64,000 bases of DNA from an uncultured Candidatus Saccharibacteria bacterium (GTDB taxonomy: Bacteria > Patescibacteriota > Minisyncoccia > UBA6257 > JAUSGH01): positions 120 to 64,119 of the forward strand of contig CAYJQG010000001.1 in assembly GCA_964372325.1 (NCBI GenBank), given 5' to 3'. Both the position numbers and the translations under genes were made by a program. The notes below the pieces were generated by a model that was not told the origin of the DNA, ran no database searches, and saw only the letters and a program-made list of their open reading frames with translations. Of the stretch, positions 39,342-42,764 are shown piece by piece (position 1 is the stretch's first letter; every line of letters begins with the position of its first letter).

Positions 39342-41588
39342 GTGGCAAAAGGAGGAACGCTGAAGGCGAAACTGATCGTGGTGACCTGCGACGAAGCGGT
39401 ACGCGATGTGGCATTATGCGACAAGGCGCTGATTGGGAACAAAGCCTCGGGGCTTGCAAAGATCGGGGAATTGGGGCTACCAACAACCCCGTGGGCGGTT
39501 ATAACGACTGAGGTGTGGAAATATTTCAGGCGTGAAGGAAAATTACCGAAGAATTTCGCACAAAACGTAAAAGATATTATCGCATTCCTTGAGAAAAAAA
39601 CAGGTGATAAGTTTGGAGATGCCGCGCGTCCGTTATTGGTATCTGTTCGTTCGGGAGCGCCGGTTTCGATGCCGGGTATGATGGATACCGTATTAAATGT
39701 TGGAATGACAAAAAAAATAGCAGACGCCAAAGAGGCGGAGTTTAGAAATGACTGCTATCGTCGCTTATGCGAAACGTTTCGTAAACCCGAAGGAGGTAAG
39801 ATTGAAGAGGAACCCTATGCGCAACTTGCAGATGCGATTATCGCAGTATTGCGTTCATGGAATAGCGAGAGAGCCGTCGCATATCGGAGGGAGAATAAGA
39901 TTGAAGAGTCGTTGGGAACCGCAGTTTTGGTTCAAGCAATGGCGTTTGGTAATCGAGATACAAATTCTGGAACGGGAGTCGTATTTAGTCGCAACATGTT
40001 AAGCGGCAAACGCGGAATAGACGGAGAGTGTCTGTTATGTTCACAAGGTGAAGATATTGTTTCTGGGGTAAAAACGCCGAAACCGTTAACGATGTTAAAA
40101 AAGCATCTGCCGAATATGTATGGGGAACTAGAACGTGCGGTGCGCAAGCTCGAACAATACTATGATGACATTGTGGAGGTGGAGTTTACGATTGAACAAG
40201 GAGTGTTATATCTTCTGCAGTGTCGTATCGCAAAACGCACTCCTGAAGTAGCAATGGCGTTTGCGGTATCTCAAGTTGAAGGTGGTAGTTGGTCGAAAAA
40301 AATTGCATTGGAACGGATAAAATTCCGGCATCTCGGTGGGAAAATGTTGCAAGAAAAAGATGTAAAGAAGGCAAAGATTTTTGCACGTGGGATTCCTGCT
40401 TCGTCGGGAGTTGCGTGCGGAAAATTGGCGGTCGACATGGAGAGCGTGAAGAAATTAAGACGATCTGGTGACCGGGTAATTCTTGTACGCCCAGATACAA
40501 ACCCTAACGATTTCGAGGGCATGCTCAAATCTGCGGGAATTGTGACGTGCGTCGGTGGCATGACGAGCCATGCGGCGGTTGTAGCGCGCGATAATGGAAT
40601 CCCGGCGGTTGTAGGGGCATCGGGGATACAGTGGGGAAATGATGGTCTTAAAAATAATGGTATGTTCATACCCTGCGGAGACTTGATTACAATCGATGGA
40701 ACCACTGGTAATATTTTCCAGGGGAAGATTGCATTGGTCAGAACGCAACCATCGCCCGATGCACGAAAGTTTTTAGAGTGGTGTGGTGAGGTGGCAGAGG
40801 TAAACGATGATCGTCGCATTACCTACGCCCATGTTGGTGGTAAATTGGGTTGGCAGAAGAAGCGAATTTCGGTCAATGAGCTGTTGAATAGTTTTTATCT
40901 TATTGAGGCAATGGCACAGCGCGCAAAAGGGTCATCGCGCGAAGAAGCGCTCGATGTATTGCGAGAGAAAGAACACAAAAGAGTAGCATCAATACTTGCA
41001 TTTTATCTCACCCTAGCAGTTGCTGGAGAGTTGCGAAATTCGGGTATGATTGAAGACCAGTCAAAGACGGTGCAACTGGCTCTAGCGAAGCTCGCCGATA
41101 GTTACGATGTTGTTAGGGGTGGTAATCATGATCGCCGTAATAGGCAACATCGAGGCGTGCGATCGCTTTGCGCAAAGTCGTTGAAGGGCCAGACCGAATT
41201 CTTTAAGCTCGCAGAGACGGTATTTCAGGCGAGTGGGTGGAGTAATGGCTATGGTGGCAGCGCTTGGGCAAAAATCGCAAACACGGTGCGGCGATACATC
41301 ACTCGGCAGTTTAATACCAGTACATTTGTCGATCGTGTTTTTGATTTGCGCCATAATGGTAATTGCTTGTTTGATAAACACTCGATAGTTAGTGGTGCAA
41401 CTTCTGAAGAGAACCTACACACTCAGTTGGATGTGAAAAAGAAAGCGTATCGTAATGTTCTGAATCTTTACGAGGCGTTAATCGGGGAGCACGACGCCGT
41501 TTCCCCAGCGGTGTTACGCGAACTGCGCGCTGGGGAAAGAGACGGTCTCTGGAAAGTAAGTAAGCGGAGGGAAAATGAAACGTACTAA
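39342..41588 (+). CDS. PEP-utilising His-domain dikinase: PPDK-like ATP-grasp nucleotide-binding domain plus phosphohistidine swivelling domain, with a novel ~270-aa C-terminal domain in place of the PEP/pyruvate TIM barrel
   Basis: ALIGNKASGLAKIGELGLPTTPWAVITTEV; LVSVRSGAPVSMPGMMDTVLNVGM (PPDK N-domain); GGMTSHAAVVARDNGIPAVVG (PEP-utiliser mobile His domain). C-terminal residues ~480-748 have no PPDK/PEPS TIM-barrel motifs. Start codon uncertain (GTG 39342 or in-frame GTG ~39375). Confidence 0.8.
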   Translation: MAKGGTLKAKLIVVTCDEAVRDVALCDKALIGNKASGLAKIGELGLPTTPWAVITTEVWKYFRREGKLPKNFAQNVKDIIAFLEKKTGDKFGDAARPLLVSVRSGAPVSMPGMMDTVLNVGMTKKIADAKEAEFRNDCYRRLCETFRKPEGGKIEEEPYAQLADAIIAVLRSWNSERAVAYRRENKIEESLGTAVLVQAMAFGNRDTNSGTGVVFSRNMLSGKRGIDGECLLCSQGEDIVSGVKTPKPLTMLKKHLPNMYGELERAVRKLEQYYDDIVEVEFTIEQGVLYLLQCRIAKRTPEVAMAFAVSQVEGGSWSKKIALERIKFRHLGGKMLQEKDVKKAKIFARGIPASSGVACGKLAVDMESVKKLRRSGDRVILVRPDTNPNDFEGMLKSAGIVTCVGGMTSHAAVVARDNGIPAVVGASGIQWGNDGLKNNGMFIPCGDLITIDGTTGNIFQGKIALVRTQPSPDARKFLEWCGEVAEVNDDRRITYAHVGGKLGWQKKRISVNELLNSFYLIEAMAQRAKGSSREEALDVLREKEHKRVASILAFYLTLAVAGELRNSGMIEDQSKTVQLALAKLADSYDVVRGGNHDRRNRQHRGVRSLCAKSLKGQTEFFKLAETVFQASGWSNGYGGSAWAKIANTVRRYITRQFNTSTFVDRVFDLRHNGNCLFDKHSIVSGATSEENLHTQLDVKKKAYRNVLNLYEALIGEHDAVSPAVLRELRAGERDGLWKVSKRRENETY

Positions 41589-42243
41589 GCATAGCGGCGC
41601 TAAGGAGTGCGGCGGACATCGTGGTGAACCAGTTCGGGTCGGTAAATTTACTATTTTTCTTGGCGGGTCTCGAGATCTCGAAGCTCACGATTTACATGGG
41701 TACGATTGCATTATTGCATTAACGGAAGACTTGCCTTCGTTACCGAGACTCCCCGTTACGGTGTGGAATTATAGCCTAGAAGACTATGGAGGGGTACCGA
41801 AAGATTGGAAAAAATTTTTGGGATTGGTGATCCAGCGGCTGAATAAGGAAGAAAAGTTACTCGCATTTTGTCACGGCTCTCATGGGCGTACGGGGACATT
41901 CCTCGCATCGTTGATTGCATTGGTGGAGCCTGGGGTACAAGACCCAGTAAAGGAAGCGCGTCGTCGGCACTGCAAGAAATCTGTTGAATCGGAAGAACAA
42001 GTAAAGGCAATTTTTGCATTGCGTGGAGAGAAAATTCCGAAAAAATATAAGAAGGAATTCTACACTCCTCCCATTTCAAAGTATAAGTGGTCTGCTCCGC
42101 CAGTGCCAATTCAACCGTCGACATATATTCCACTGCCGCCTGTGAGTAAGGGACCCATTAAGCGAGCACCCAAAGTCTCCGTTGTTGTGTTGCCAACAAC
42201 ATGCGAACCAGGGTTACAAGATTTTATCGGAGGTGGGTCGTGA
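41575..42243 (+). CDS. dual-specificity / protein-tyrosine-phosphatase-fold phosphatase (CX5R) with Pro/Lys-rich C-terminal tail
   Basis: 222 aa. Active-site loop LLAFCHGSHGRTGTFLASLIAL (CX5R). Overlaps the dikinase gene by 14 nt, so translationally coupled. Confidence 0.7.
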   Translation: MKRTKHSGAKECGGHRGEPVRVGKFTIFLGGSRDLEAHDLHGYDCIIALTEDLPSLPRLPVTVWNYSLEDYGGVPKDWKKFLGLVIQRLNKEEKLLAFCHGSHGRTGTFLASLIALVEPGVQDPVKEARRRHCKKSVESEEQVKAIFALRGEKIPKKYKKEFYTPPISKYKWSAPPVPIQPSTYIPLPPVSKGPIKRAPKVSVVVLPTTCEPGLQDFIGGGS

Positions 42244-42263
42244 GTGGTAAGGGCGAATGGTAT

Positions 42264-42764
42264 ATGGCTGGGTCGGAAAAGACTGGAGAATATGTAGTAA
42301 TCGCAAAGACATCGGTGGGTCGAATTGGGTATCGCGATCTCGGAGATGAAGGGTTTAGGGTGCGCCTTGAGCCTGCGCAGGATAAAATAAAAGATGTTGC
42401 AAAAAAATTGAGTGACTGGAAGCGGCCCAATGGGCAGCAACGGTTTTCTAAAGAAGTGGAAGGGGGCGAAGATGAAATTATCGAGTCGCCACTGTACGAG
42501 GCATTGAAGGAGGGGTTAATGGCGATGATGGGCGAAGAAGTGGCGATAAACCCCAATGCTAAGGCATGGGCGAAAGAGCTTGTCGCCACATGCGCGCGTG
42601 CGTATGTCGTAAAGAAGGTCAAAAAAATTACCAAAAAAGCAGTAATACCCGACAAGCTCACAGCGGCAGCCGAAGAATTGAAAGAGGGGTTGATCGATGT
42701 GATGGGCGAGAGCGAAACGAGTAAGCCTCAAGAGAAAAAAGAAGATGATGGGTTGTACATGTAA
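42264..42764 (+). CDS. hypothetical protein with internal repeat (EALKEGLMAMMGEE / EELKEGLIDVMGES); start uncertain
   Basis: 166 aa from ATG 42264; the ORF-track start 42201 overlaps the phosphatase gene. Third gene of the dikinase operon. Followed by an intrinsic terminator. Confidence 0.4.
   Translation: MAGSEKTGEYVVIAKTSVGRIGYRDLGDEGFRVRLEPAQDKIKDVAKKLSDWKRPNGQQRFSKEVEGGEDEIIESPLYEALKEGLMAMMGEEVAINPNAKAWAKELVATCARAYVVKKVKKITKKAVIPDKLTAAAEELKEGLIDVMGESETSKPQEKKEDDGLYM

What the first reader, a model, noticed from the sequence alone, without database searches (positions are those of the whole stretch)
39342..42764. Operon pairing a PPDK-like His-domain dikinase that has a novel C-terminal domain with a CX5R dual-specificity phosphatase: candidate reversible phosphorylation system
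The 748-aa protein has the PPDK ATP-grasp domain and the phosphohistidine swivelling domain (GGMTSHAAVVARDNGIP). The PEP/pyruvate TIM barrel is replaced by an unrelated ~270-aa domain. That architecture implies ATP beta-phosphate transfer via His to an unknown acceptor, as in rifampin phosphotransferase or glucan water dikinase. It is translationally coupled (14-nt overlap) to a 222-aa CHGSHGRTG (CX5R) phosphatase with a Pro/Lys-rich tail. A 166-aa internal-repeat protein follows. A dikinase plus DSP pair resembles the plant GWD / SEX4-laforin glucan phosphorylation cycle. No such bacterial cassette is known to me. The substrate could be a polymer, small molecule or protein.
Basis: partly seen in the sequence, partly recalled or inferred. 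Interest (0 to 1): 0.85.

Follow-up and report, generated by a model that had tools for sequence, protein, structure and literature searches.

The report
Orphan dikinase–phosphatase cassette, bacteria and phages
A three-gene operon encodes a pyruvate-phosphate-dikinase-like enzyme whose usual substrate domain is replaced by an unknown all-helical domain, plus a cysteine phosphatase and a small unknown protein; the same parts recur together in ultra-small bacteria, Melainabacteria and many phages, so this is a widespread phosphoryl-transfer system of unknown function.

Summary

A CX5R phosphatase overlaps the dikinase gene by 14 nt. A 166-aa protein ("p3") follows. A promoter-like site and a terminator-like hairpin bracket the three genes.

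The ct family has 802 clusters at 50% identity. In 41 of 50 informative bacterial loci, mostly Patescibacteria and Melainabacteria, the phosphatase and/or p3 lies directly downstream; other neighbours are not conserved. More than 60 viral loci carry the same parts unfused, usually before DNA polymerase A. Published work treats the phage genes as unrelated metabolic genes.

Most likely mechanism (inferred): ATP to His410 to an acceptor at the ct pocket (E563, D664, H671, N672, K679), with the phosphatase and p3 opposing it. The acceptor is unknown. The glucan analogy has no specific support. Interest is high and function is unresolved.

The parts
39267..39296 (+). Promoter-like site (TTTGCA-18-TATTAT with an upstream TG), 46 nt before the dikinase start
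   Evidence: Consensus scan. The number of such sites in the region is no greater than in shuffles, so this is only a candidate.
39342..41588 (+). Gene 1: 748-aa His-swivel dikinase fused to the orphan 'ct' domain
   Evidence: ORF; Pfam and NCBIfam; PDB alignment. The identical protein, P0001, is in the public collection.
39414..40361 (+). PPDK-type ATP-grasp nucleotide-binding domain (about residues 25-340)
   Evidence: PPDK_N 1.7e-36. In the alignment to 1kbl, the motifs VSVRSGA..SMPGMMDT and EFTIE..LLQ.R..KRT are conserved.
40362..40736 (+). Swivel phosphohistidine domain (about residues 341-465). The catalytic His410 codon is at 40569-40571, in GGMTSHAAVVARD; Thr408 occupies the position of the regulatory Thr.
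   Evidence: PEP-utilizers 3.4e-22; aligned to the PPDK GGMTSHAAVVARG motif; positions.
40839..41576 (+). 'ct' domain (about residues 500-745): all-alpha orphan domain with a conserved polar cluster of E563, G638-G639, W642, D664, H671, N672 and K679
41575..42243 (+). Gene 2: 222-aa cysteine (CX5R) phosphatase, overlapping gene 1 by 14 nt. The P-loop C99-R105 lies at 41869-41889; D70 is the putative general acid; the C-terminal Pro/Lys-rich tail is not conserved.
   Evidence: SsoPTP 7e-6, DUSP23; invariant D70, C99, G104, R105, T106, G107, E138, Q142.
42264..42764 (+). Gene 3 ('p3'): 166-aa protein. The mechanical ORF starts at 42201. It has a conserved ~75-aa N-domain (GT..Y..G..R..R.R.EP..W..RFS) and a variable helical C-terminal half.
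   Evidence: Family alignment. 52 database relatives, all 'hypothetical' and without Pfam domains. Fused to the DSP in L006 and L009. hhalign to the phage ~280-aa family gives P=1.7e-5.
42773..42801 (+). Terminator-like hairpin (8-bp stem, 5 G-C pairs) followed by a T-run, 9 nt after the p3 stop

Best explanation
This is a self-contained phosphoryl-transfer module.

Shown by homology: gene 1 keeps the complete PPDK machinery for the first half-reaction. That comprises the ATP-grasp site and the swivelling His410.

Inferred: ATP is split to AMP, and the beta-phosphate is carried on His410, with Pi or water taking the gamma-phosphate. The swivel domain then delivers that phosphate to the all-helical ct domain that replaces the PEP/pyruvate barrel. 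There a compact, conserved polar pocket (E563, D664, H671, N672, K679 and the GG..W loop) either positions an acceptor or accepts the phosphate itself on H671.

The co-translated CX5R phosphatase, working with p3, removes the phosphate. The p2+p3 gene fusions indicate the two act together. The trio would therefore be a writer/eraser pair plus a targeting or acceptor subunit.

No other gene is conserved with the cassette. So the acceptor is either encoded in it or is a component common to all bacteria. My preferred guess for the first case is the p3 N-domain, with its conserved Gly-Thr...Tyr, by analogy with Enzyme I passing phosphate to HPr.

Phages carry the same parts as separate genes and express them beside their DNA polymerase, presumably to impose the same switch on the infected cell.
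For: The catalytic apparatus is intact:
- Residues 29-482 align to PPDK 16-528 at E 7e-94, with the nucleotide-site motifs and the TSH motif conserved.
- 83 of 94 long family members keep the His motif.
- All 40 aligned DSPs, including both phage paralogues, keep D70, C99 and R105.

ct looks like an active or ligand site rather than a spacer:
- The model is confident.
- E, D, H, N, K and GG..W are conserved in about 92-100% of 104 bacterial and viral domains.

Functional linkage:
- ct is fused to the dikinase in 92 of the 150 best representatives.
- Of 50 bacterial loci with enough downstream sequence, 31 have the DSP and 35 have p3 directly downstream on the same strand (41 have either). Typical gaps run from -37 to +200 nt.
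- p2+p3 fusions occur in L006 and L009.
- No other neighbour family recurs.
- The closest relative has the same trio in a different neighbourhood.
- The 34 IMG/VR viral loci examined mostly show dikinase - DSP - ct - DSP - p3-like.
- Of the 80 best dikinase-like viral loci, 30 have ct nearby and all 30 also have the DSP. Only 1 of the other 50 does.

Operon: 14-nt overlap, Shine-Dalgarno, promoter-like site and terminator-like hairpin.
Against: - No biochemical step was tested, and the acceptor is unknown.
- A kinase and a phosphatase expressed at a fixed ratio on one substrate would be a futile cycle unless they are regulated or act at different steps.
- ct occurs with no dikinase or DSP within the ~8 kb fetched on each side: six tandem paralogues in L078 and two large proteins in megaphage locus L003. 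P0113 carries four ct repeats in one 2263-aa protein. ct therefore has a function of its own.
- Six viral loci have ct plus a DSP but no dikinase within 8 kb. Whether a dikinase lies elsewhere on those contigs could not be settled.
- 9 of the 50 bacterial loci have neither the DSP nor p3 downstream.
- Homology between p3 and the phage ~280-aa family rests on only 35 aligned columns (78.6% probability).
Confidence: 0.4

Rival explanations
1. Nucleic-acid-directed system. The dikinase phosphorylates DNA or RNA (an end or a modified base), and the DSPs act as polynucleotide phosphatases. This would be end-healing as in T4 Pnkp, or a DNA-modification step. ct and p3 would be the nucleic-acid-binding parts.
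For: - In phages the cassette lies directly upstream of a family-A DNA polymerase in 22 of 37 loci, and also in DLP3/DLP5.
- The best Pfam match of the DSP is the PTP-SAK domain, by its Pfam description a 'Swiss Army Knife protein' DSP domain. From memory, that name comes from RNA-repair comparative genomics.
- Cysteine phosphatases include RNA 5'-triphosphatases (established knowledge).
- p3 has several conserved Arg residues.
- A megaphage ct protein has a weak KOW-like hit.
Against: - The cassette holds no ligase, nuclease, base-modifying enzyme or recognisable nucleic-acid-binding domain.
- The SAP/HeH-like impression of the p3 C-terminus got no Pfam support.
- Bacterial loci show no replication or repair context as a rule.
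- The PTP-SAK score is barely above threshold (28.1 against 27).
Confidence: 0.12
2. Protein phosphorelay with p3 as the sole substrate (Enzyme I to HPr logic). ct is only a docking platform, p3 is phosphorylated on its conserved Thr or Tyr, and the DSP resets it. Phospho-p3 is the output.
For: - p3 is the only other conserved partner.
- The N-domain has conserved G3, T4 and Y10, also seen in the phage relatives.
- p2+p3 fusions exist.
- The closest solved relatives of p2 are protein phosphatases, SsoPTP and DUSP23.
- In Enzyme I, a homologous swivel domain passes phosphate to a small protein docked on a helical subdomain (established knowledge).
Against: - ct has a conserved polar cluster that a passive docking surface would not need.
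- ct arrays exist without p3 nearby.
- 15 of the 50 bacterial loci lack p3 downstream.
- In phages the p3-like segment is internal to larger proteins.
Confidence: 0.15
3. Conflict system. The dikinase is a toxin or effector that phosphorylates an essential target (or burns ATP), and the DSP is its antidote. Bacteria would use it for defence or addiction, and phages as counter-defence or takeover.
For: - The cassette is patchily distributed and sits in different neighbourhoods in close relatives.
- Phage-borne homologues and paralogue arrays occur in large viral contigs.
- The overlapping gene pair resembles toxin-antitoxin organisation.
- The DSP also matches Tc-R-P, a polymorphic-toxin-associated DSP family.
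Against: - No PADLOC match for any component.
- Flanking genes are housekeeping genes, not defence islands.
- The GC content matches the genome and there are no att repeats.
- The cassette persists in very small Patescibacteria genomes.
- Both 'toxin' and 'antidote' are kept together in lytic phages.
Confidence: 0.1
4. Small-molecule energy or nucleotide enzyme. Like PPDK running towards ATP, the enzyme uses AMP (or dNMP) + PPi + a phospho-donor bound in ct to make NTP, or phosphorylates a small metabolite. The DSP acts on a related metabolite.
For: - The N-terminal half is much closer to true, reversible PPDK (318 bits) than to PEP synthase (74 bits).
- The ct pocket residues (E, D, H, N, K) would suit a small anionic ligand with Mg2+.
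- Hosts are PPi-reliant, metabolically reduced bacteria and replicating phages (inference).
Against: - No transporter, metabolic gene or riboswitch is linked to the cassette.
- p3 and the paired DSPs are left unexplained.
- Cysteine phosphatases rarely act on small primary metabolites (established knowledge).
Confidence: 0.08
5. Glucan phosphorylation cycle, homologous in logic to plant GWD plus SEX4/laforin.
For: Only the pairing of a His-dikinase with a DSP.
Against: - No CBM20, CBM45 or CBM48 or any carbohydrate-binding domain in the dikinase, the DSP or p3.
- The domain order is PPDK-like, not GWD-like.
- No glycogen or starch genes nearby.
- The cassette sits in lytic phages next to DNA polymerase.
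Confidence: 0.03
6. An ordinary PPDK or PEP synthase with a diverged PEP/pyruvate domain.
For: NCBIfam PPDK models score about 440 bits over the N-terminal 490 aa, and phage homologues are annotated 'pyruvate phosphate dikinase'.
Against: - Full-length PPDK model: 439.7 bits against a cut-off of 843.
- No PEP-utilizers_C hit.
- The alignment to PPDK stops at residue 528.
- The C-terminal domain is all-alpha with no beta-strands and no similarity to any TIM barrel.
Confidence: 0.01

Closest known systems
Pyruvate, phosphate dikinase (PPDK; C. symbiosum 1KBL, maize or Flaveria enzymes)
   Same: The N-terminal ATP-grasp domain and the swivel His domain are clearly homologous (E 7e-94, GGMTSHAAVVAR motif). 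The domain order is the same, and so is the linker helix leading out of the swivel domain.
   Different: The C-terminal PEP/pyruvate TIM barrel (about 340 aa) is absent and replaced by a ~250-aa all-helical domain of unknown family. PEP/pyruvate chemistry is therefore not expected.
Short 'PPDK' of NCBIfam PRK05878 (534-aa model; from memory, the actinobacterial/mycobacterial truncated PPDK)
   Same: Best-scoring NCBIfam model (441.7 bits, profile positions 20-489 of 534). It also consists of the ATP-grasp and swivel domains without the barrel.
   Different: The score is below that family's cut-off (456). The window protein carries the extra ct domain and has the DSP and p3 partners. The function of the PRK05878 family is itself unclear.
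Rifampin phosphotransferase (RPH) and other swapped-acceptor His-dikinases (PEP synthase, glucan water dikinase, PigC/RedH)
   Same: Same principle. An ATP-grasp plus a phosphate-carrying His swivel domain serves a lineage-specific acceptor-binding domain, with ATP going to AMP + Pi + phospho-product (RPH: PMC4844700, abstract seen).
   Different: Only the swivel domain matches these families, at 47-52 bits. The domain order differs: in RPH the swivel domain is C-terminal. The acceptor domain is unrelated. None of these enzymes is encoded with a DSP and a p3-like protein.
Plant GWD/PWD with the glucan phosphatases SEX4, LSF2 and laforin
   Same: A His-dikinase 'writer' is opposed by a CX5R dual-specificity-type phosphatase 'eraser' acting on one substrate. 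This is an analogy of logic only.
   Different: There are no carbohydrate-binding modules and no glucan context. The components are a different dikinase lineage (PPDK-like) and a different DSP lineage (SsoPTP/PTP-SAK-like). Here the genes are co-operonic and are also phage-borne.
PTS Enzyme I to HPr
   Same: A homologous swivel His domain hands phosphate to a small partner protein docked on an all-helical subdomain (established knowledge). This could model dikinase-ct to p3.
   Different: The phosphate source is ATP via an ATP-grasp, not PEP via a TIM barrel. ct and p3 show no detectable similarity to the EIN helical subdomain or to HPr. A cysteine phosphatase is part of the unit.
Small archaeal/atypical PTPs (SsoPTP 2i6i, DUSP23) and Pfam PTP-SAK / Tc-R-P
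   Same: The p2 catalytic core: the D-loop Asp, the CX5R(T) P-loop and a downstream conserved E...Q.
   Different: Similarity is weak (E 7e-6; Pfam 28.1 bits against 27). F rather than H precedes the Cys. p2 forms its own family of at least 182 clusters, tied to the ct domain.

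Membership tests
Pyruvate, phosphate dikinase (EC 2.7.9.1) | N-terminal ATP-grasp nucleotide-binding domain | tested here: met
   PPDK_N 1.7e-36; alignment to 1kbl residues 16-340 with nucleotide-site motifs conserved.
Pyruvate, phosphate dikinase (EC 2.7.9.1) | Central swivel domain with the catalytic His in a T-S-H motif | tested here: met
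   PEP-utilizers 3.4e-22; GGMTSHAAVVARD, His410.
Pyruvate, phosphate dikinase (EC 2.7.9.1) | C-terminal PEP/pyruvate-binding TIM barrel (Pfam PEP-utilizers_C) | tested here: not met
   No Pfam hit. TIGR01828 scores 439.7 bits against a cut-off of 843. The PDB alignment ends at residue 528 of 873. The AF2 model of the C-terminal 279 aa is all-alpha.
Pyruvate, phosphate dikinase (EC 2.7.9.1) | Catalysis of ATP + Pi + pyruvate = AMP + PPi + PEP | not testable with these tools
   Needs an enzyme assay. Not expected, given the missing barrel.
Glucan water dikinase (GWD/PWD) | Starch-binding modules (CBM45 or CBM20) and a C-terminal ATP-grasp placed after the His domain | tested here: not met
   No CBM hit. 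The domain order is ATP-grasp then His, as in PPDK.
Rifampin phosphotransferase (RPH) | ATP-grasp, then a rifampin-binding domain, then a C-terminal swivel His domain; NCBIfam NF041857 | tested here: not met
   NF041857 scores 52.3 bits against a cut-off of 999, over the swivel domain only. The domain order differs.
Cysteine (CX5R) phosphatases, dual-specificity/atypical PTP class | HCX5R(S/T) P-loop with a nucleophilic Cys and an Arg | tested here: met
   F-C99-HGSHG-R105-T. C, G, R, T and G are invariant in 40 family members. F replaces the usual H before the Cys.
Cysteine (CX5R) phosphatases, dual-specificity/atypical PTP class | General-acid Asp on a loop about 30 residues upstream of the P-loop | tested here: met
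   D70 (in the 'DYGG' / consensus 'DFGGVP' loop) is invariant. The role is inferred from position only.
Cysteine (CX5R) phosphatases, dual-specificity/atypical PTP class | Significant profile match to a PTP/DSP family | tested here: met
   PTP-SAK 2.4e-6, 28.1 bits against 27 (marginal). SsoPTP 7.3e-6 and DUSP23 0.019. Phage paralogues also hit Tc-R-P, Y_phosphatase and DSPc.
Glucan phosphatases (SEX4 / LSF2 / laforin) | Carbohydrate-binding module (CBM48 or CBM20) or glucan-binding surface joined to the DSP | tested here: not met
   No CBM in p2 or in 182 family members. The tail is Pro/Lys-rich and not conserved.
Known anti-phage defence systems (PADLOC-DB v2) | A match of any component to a defence-system model | tested here: not met
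   Zero hits for the dikinase, p2 and p3.
PTS Enzyme I / HPr phosphorelay | PEP-binding TIM barrel, EIN helical subdomain and an HPr-fold partner | tested here: not met
   TIGR01417 scores 28.9 bits against a cut-off of 341.7, over the swivel domain only. ct and p3 have no Pfam or PDB match. The similarity is one of logic only.

The most novel reading that the evidence does not exclude
The cassette is a previously unrecognised kind of ATP-driven phosphoryl-transfer system, built on two orphan protein families: the ct helical domain and the p3 N-domain. A PPDK-derived swivel His feeds a new type of acceptor or relay domain, and a dedicated cysteine phosphatase with p3 reverses it. The system controls a target common to all bacteria. 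Patescibacteria and Melainabacteria use it chromosomally, and many phages deploy it during infection, possibly on the replication or gene-expression machinery or on nucleic acid itself.
Probability: 0.3. Interest if true: 0.88.

Novelty: new variant of a known kind. Interest (0 to 1): 0.74.

Why it matters
Swivel-His dikinases are a small enzyme class. Each newly found acceptor domain has so far revealed distinct biology: C4 photosynthesis, gluconeogenesis, starch breakdown, rifampin resistance, prodigiosin synthesis.

Here a new acceptor domain with no solved or curated relative defines a family of about 800 sequence clusters. It is locked genetically to a dedicated cysteine phosphatase and a second orphan protein. 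It is shared by three groups in which most genes are uncharacterised: Patescibacteria, Melainabacteria and tailed phages, including cultured Vibrio, Stenotrophomonas and Rhodobacter phages.

Phage genome papers currently annotate the parts as unrelated 'auxiliary metabolic genes': PPDK for glycolysis, a tyrosine phosphatase for signalling, and a mislabelled 'thymidylate synthase'. Recognising them as one module corrects those annotations. It also makes the function directly testable in tractable phage-host pairs.

If the acceptor is a nucleic acid or a core machine, this would be a new mode of phage takeover and of bacterial regulation.

Tried and rejected
- Word-indexed homologue search with the ct domain found nothing, not even the protein itself. 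The exhaustive HMMER search was needed.
- Single-sequence AlphaFold of ct was useless (pLDDT 37.8). The MSA-based model was good.
- The afdb50 fold library was unavailable, so AFDB-wide fold matches are untested.
- Idea: ct is an aGPT-Pplase-like DNA-hypermodification domain. No Pfam family recurs across 38 members even at E up to 5.
- Idea: the p3 C-terminal 'PGAN..W..L..K' motif is a SAP/HeH DNA-binding motif. No Pfam support.
- Profile searches of ct and p3 against PDB sequences found nothing.
- PADLOC gave no hits. Rfam found no riboswitch upstream in the window or in 13 loci.
- Island test: no att-like direct repeat of the adjacent tRNA genes, and the cassette GC equals the genome GC.
- The phage dikinases' own C-terminal tails are lineage-specific and unrelated to ct.
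- The dikinase scan of viral contigs could not show whether ct+DSP-only loci have a dikinase elsewhere, because only 80 of 224 loci are returned.
- An IMG/VR contig of the same length as the source contig (64,448 bp; L106) proved unrelated.
By its relatives it is most likely a Patescibacteria member.
- Literature searches found no description of the cassette.

Full report
**1. What is in the sequence**

Three same-strand ORFs occupy 39342-42764.

Gene 1 (39342-41588, 748 aa, GTG start) matches Pfam PPDK_N (1.7e-36) and the mobile PEP-utilizers His domain (3.4e-22). It does not match the PEP-utilizers_C TIM barrel. NCBIfam places the first ~490 residues with the short PPDK family PRK05878 (441.7 bits, just under its cut-off of 456) and with full-length PPDK (439.7 bits against a cut-off of 843), so about half of a PPDK is present.

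Against solved structures, residues 29-482 align with C. symbiosum PPDK residues 16-528 at E 7.3e-94. The alignment includes the nucleotide-site motifs and GGMTSHAAVVAR, and it stops at the linker that in PPDK leads into the barrel. The catalytic His is residue 410.

Gene 2 (41575-42243, 222 aa) overlaps gene 1 by 14 nt and has a GGAGGG Shine-Dalgarno. It carries C99-HGSHG-R105 and scores marginally on Pfam PTP-SAK (28.1 bits against 27). It also matches SsoPTP and DUSP23 weakly.

Gene 3 is listed mechanically as 187 aa from 42201.

A promoter-like site (39267-39296) and a hairpin plus T-run (42773-42801) bracket the three genes. The window is an ordinary bacterial chromosome, with RpoD, DnaG, PNPase, AlaRS, an FtsI-type PBP, MurA and NadE.

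**2. The C-terminal domain is an orphan**

The last 279 residues gave no PDB sequence hit and no hit in the word-indexed search. They did match a phage family of unknown function, phrog_20946, at 2e-13.

An exhaustive HMMER scan of 1.84 billion cluster representatives found 802 relatives at E up to 1e-3 and 156 at E up to 1e-10. Of the best 150, 92 have more than 400 residues N-terminal to the domain, which is the same fusion as here. Among members of at least 640 aa, 83 of 94 keep the swivel-His motif.

With a 38-sequence alignment, AlphaFold2 gives a confident model (pLDDT 91.8, pTM 0.88) of 13 helices and no sheet. The single-sequence model had failed.

- Foldseek against all PDB chains finds nothing better than E 2 and TM 0.2.
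- BFVD returns only four unnamed phage proteins.
- No Pfam family recurs over the 38 members even at E up to 5.

So this is not a diverged barrel. It is a domain family absent from Pfam and from the PDB. I call it ct.

Across 56 bacterial and 48 viral copies, the conserved residues are E563, G638-G639, W642, D664, H671, N672 and K679, plus a few hydrophobic positions. That is the signature of an active or ligand-binding site rather than a scaffold.

**3. The gene association is conserved**

A scan of one genome per species found 54 loci. By record title, 15 are Patescibacteria, 27 are Melainabacteria/Obscuribacterales, and 12 are other or unclassified MAGs.

Iterated HMM searches on their ORFs show the DSP (p2) and p3 immediately downstream on the same strand. 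Of the 50 loci with at least 1.2 kb downstream:

- 31 have p2, 35 have p3, and 41 have at least one.
- The commonest order is p2 then p3.
- Typical gaps run from -37 to +200 nt.

p2 and p3 are fused into one protein in L006 and L009. No other gene family recurs. The flanking genes are assorted housekeeping genes such as SecY, NusG/L11 and CysRS, with no defence or glycan theme.

The nearest relative of this locus, from a groundwater metagenome, has the same trio (780 + 240 + 142 aa) between RecG, an RNase J-like gene and UvrD. The window's own flanking genes are not conserved with the cassette. The trio is therefore the unit.

**4. The same parts occur in phages, unfused**

tblastn against GenBank phages found ct as a stand-alone 330-360-aa protein in ~81-kb Vibrio siphophages, Rhodobacter phage RcZahn, Stenotrophomonas phages and a 595-kb megaphage. 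In R30Z and RcZahn it lies a few genes after a 'pyruvate phosphate dikinase' that also lacks the barrel, and next to PTP-type phosphatases.

In the 34 IMG/VR loci the common layout is: dikinase (640-740 aa), one to three small ORFs, DSP 1, ct, DSP 2, then a ~280-aa protein. It is usually followed by a family-A DNA polymerase and the portal gene.

The ~280-aa family (phrog_25950) contains a segment matching the p3 N-domain. hhalign gives 78.6% probability and P 1.7e-5 over 35 columns for the motif GT..Y.V.A...R...RVRVE. Homology is plausible, but it rests on a short stretch plus synteny.

An independent scan seeded with the dikinase is telling. Of the 80 best dikinase-like viral loci, 30 have ct within 3 kb, and all 30 also have the cassette-type DSP. 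Only 1 of the other 50 has it.

The published DLP3/DLP5 gene table shows the same order. There DSP 2 is labelled 'thymidylate synthase' although CD-search calls it a PTP (PMC7326821). This explains the odd 'thymidylate synthase' name of phrog_17568.

Phage papers treat the dikinase and the phosphatase as separate auxiliary metabolic genes and call the dikinase uncharacterised (PMC12038007). I found no paper that treats them as one system.

**5. How it most likely works**

Shown by homology:
- The ATP-grasp and swivel His are intact, so gene 1 can very probably autophosphorylate His410 from ATP, as PPDK does.
- The DSP keeps Asp, Cys and Arg in all 40 aligned members, including both phage paralogues.

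Inferred:
- The swivel domain delivers the phosphate to the ct pocket, because ct sits exactly where the acceptor domain sits in PPDK and is fused there in most bacterial members.
- The DSP opposes this step.
- p3 works with the DSP, on the evidence of the fusions.

I commit to this writer/eraser module at about 0.4. The acceptor is open. No further gene is conserved, so the acceptor is either inside the cassette or is universal to bacteria. My preferred guess for the first case is the p3 N-domain, with its conserved G3, T4 and Y10, by analogy with Enzyme I and HPr. The invariant H671 of ct as a relay site is an alternative.

Points against a simple acceptor-lobe model:
- L078 has six tandem ct genes, and megaphage locus L003 has two large ct proteins. 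Neither has a DSP or dikinase within the ~8 kb fetched on each side.
- One 2263-aa protein, P0113, carries four ct repeats.
- Six viral loci have ct plus a DSP but no dikinase within 8 kb.
- Nine of the 50 bacterial loci lack both partners downstream.

**6. Rivals**

- Nucleic-acid-directed chemistry (0.12). It is suggested by the constant position before DNA polymerase in phages and by the PTP-SAK affinity of the DSP. It lacks any ligase, nuclease or base-modifying partner.
- A pure p3 phosphorelay (0.15).
- A toxin/antidote or anti-defence pair (0.10). It fits the mobility and the overlapping genes, but there is no PADLOC hit and no defence-island context.
- A small-molecule or ATP-regenerating enzyme (0.08). 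It fits the closeness to reversible PPDK but leaves p3 and the DSPs unexplained. No riboswitch was found.
- The glucan analogy (0.03). No carbohydrate-binding module is present anywhere.
- An ordinary PPDK (0.01). Excluded by the all-alpha C-terminal domain.

**7. Comparison and novelty**

It works like the swapped-acceptor His-dikinases (PPDK, PEP synthase, GWD, RPH). It descends from PPDK itself but fails the PPDK membership test on the barrel. The DSP is a bona fide CX5R phosphatase of its own lineage, with at least 182 clusters, all small and unannotated.

Two of the four modules, ct and the p3 N-domain, have no curated family and no detectable solved relative.

I rate it a new variant of a known kind. 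The most novel reading, a new phosphoryl-transfer system acting on a universal bacterial target and shared by phages and ultra-small bacteria, has about 0.3 probability.

**8. Caveats**

- The AFDB fold library was unavailable.
- Neighbourhood analysis used my own ORF calls and HMMs built in-session.
- MAG and IMG/VR taxonomic or viral labels are as deposited.

Noticed in passing
window 37680-38939 (-): A 419-aa ORF just upstream of the cassette, in the lowest-GC stretch of the region (0.367), has a weak PADLOC hit to Csx1/Csm6 (CARF+HEPN) at E 0.0039. It has no Pfam family and is not conserved next to the cassette elsewhere.
   Followed up: no
window 45041-45166 and 45836-45961: Two copies of a ~125-nt AT-rich sequence (85-98% identical, 795 nt apart) flank the minus-strand 190-aa ORF 45184-45756, just before dnaG. 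This could be a duplicated intergenic/promoter region or a small mobile unit.
   Followed up: no
window 29573-32032 (-): An 818-aa triple fusion: carbon-nitrogen hydrolase + NAD synthase + a cytidylyltransferase-like (NMNAT-type) domain. That would be a NadE with an extra adenylyltransferase module.
   Followed up: no
window 42947-43975 and 44011-44943 (+): Directly downstream of the cassette lie an AstE/AspA-family (succinylglutamate desuccinylase/aspartoacylase-like) protein with a biotin/lipoyl-like C-terminus and a C39-like cysteine peptidase with a ~150-aa N-terminal extension. This pair is not conserved with the cassette in other loci.
   Followed up: partly
L078 2055-9920; L003 7611-12556; protein P0113: The ct domain is amplified in some large viral genomes. 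A 124-kb IMG/VR contig has six tandem ct genes. Megaphage LR756511 has two adjacent large ct proteins (949 and 694 aa), one with a weak KOW-like hit. One 2263-aa protein carries four ct repeats. For the two loci, no dikinase or DSP lies within the stretch fetched.
   Followed up: partly
proteins P0058, P0062, P0067, P0073, P0104, P0107, P0111 (homologues of gene 1): A subgroup of ~600-1030-aa homologues has a long C-terminal extension after ct. Pfam finds an AAA ATPase domain in P0111 (2.7e-10). By eye, several share HExxH-like, DxSGSM (MIDAS-like) and P-loop motifs, but Pfam does not confirm a peptidase or vWA domain.
   Followed up: partly
phrog_17568; Stenotrophomonas phages DLP3 gp141 / DLP5: The PHROG family labelled 'thymidylate synthase' is in fact the cassette's cysteine phosphatase (E 2.6e-32 for phage DSP 2). 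The label seems to stem from a propagated misannotation in the DLP5/DLP3 records.
   Followed up: yes
window 35896-35967 and 36241-36312 (+): tRNA-Ser(TGA) and tRNA-Pro(GGG) lie ~3 kb upstream of the cassette. The ~9.5 kb between them and dnaG holds only poorly conserved genes plus the cassette, but no att-like repeat or GC shift marks an island.
   Followed up: yes
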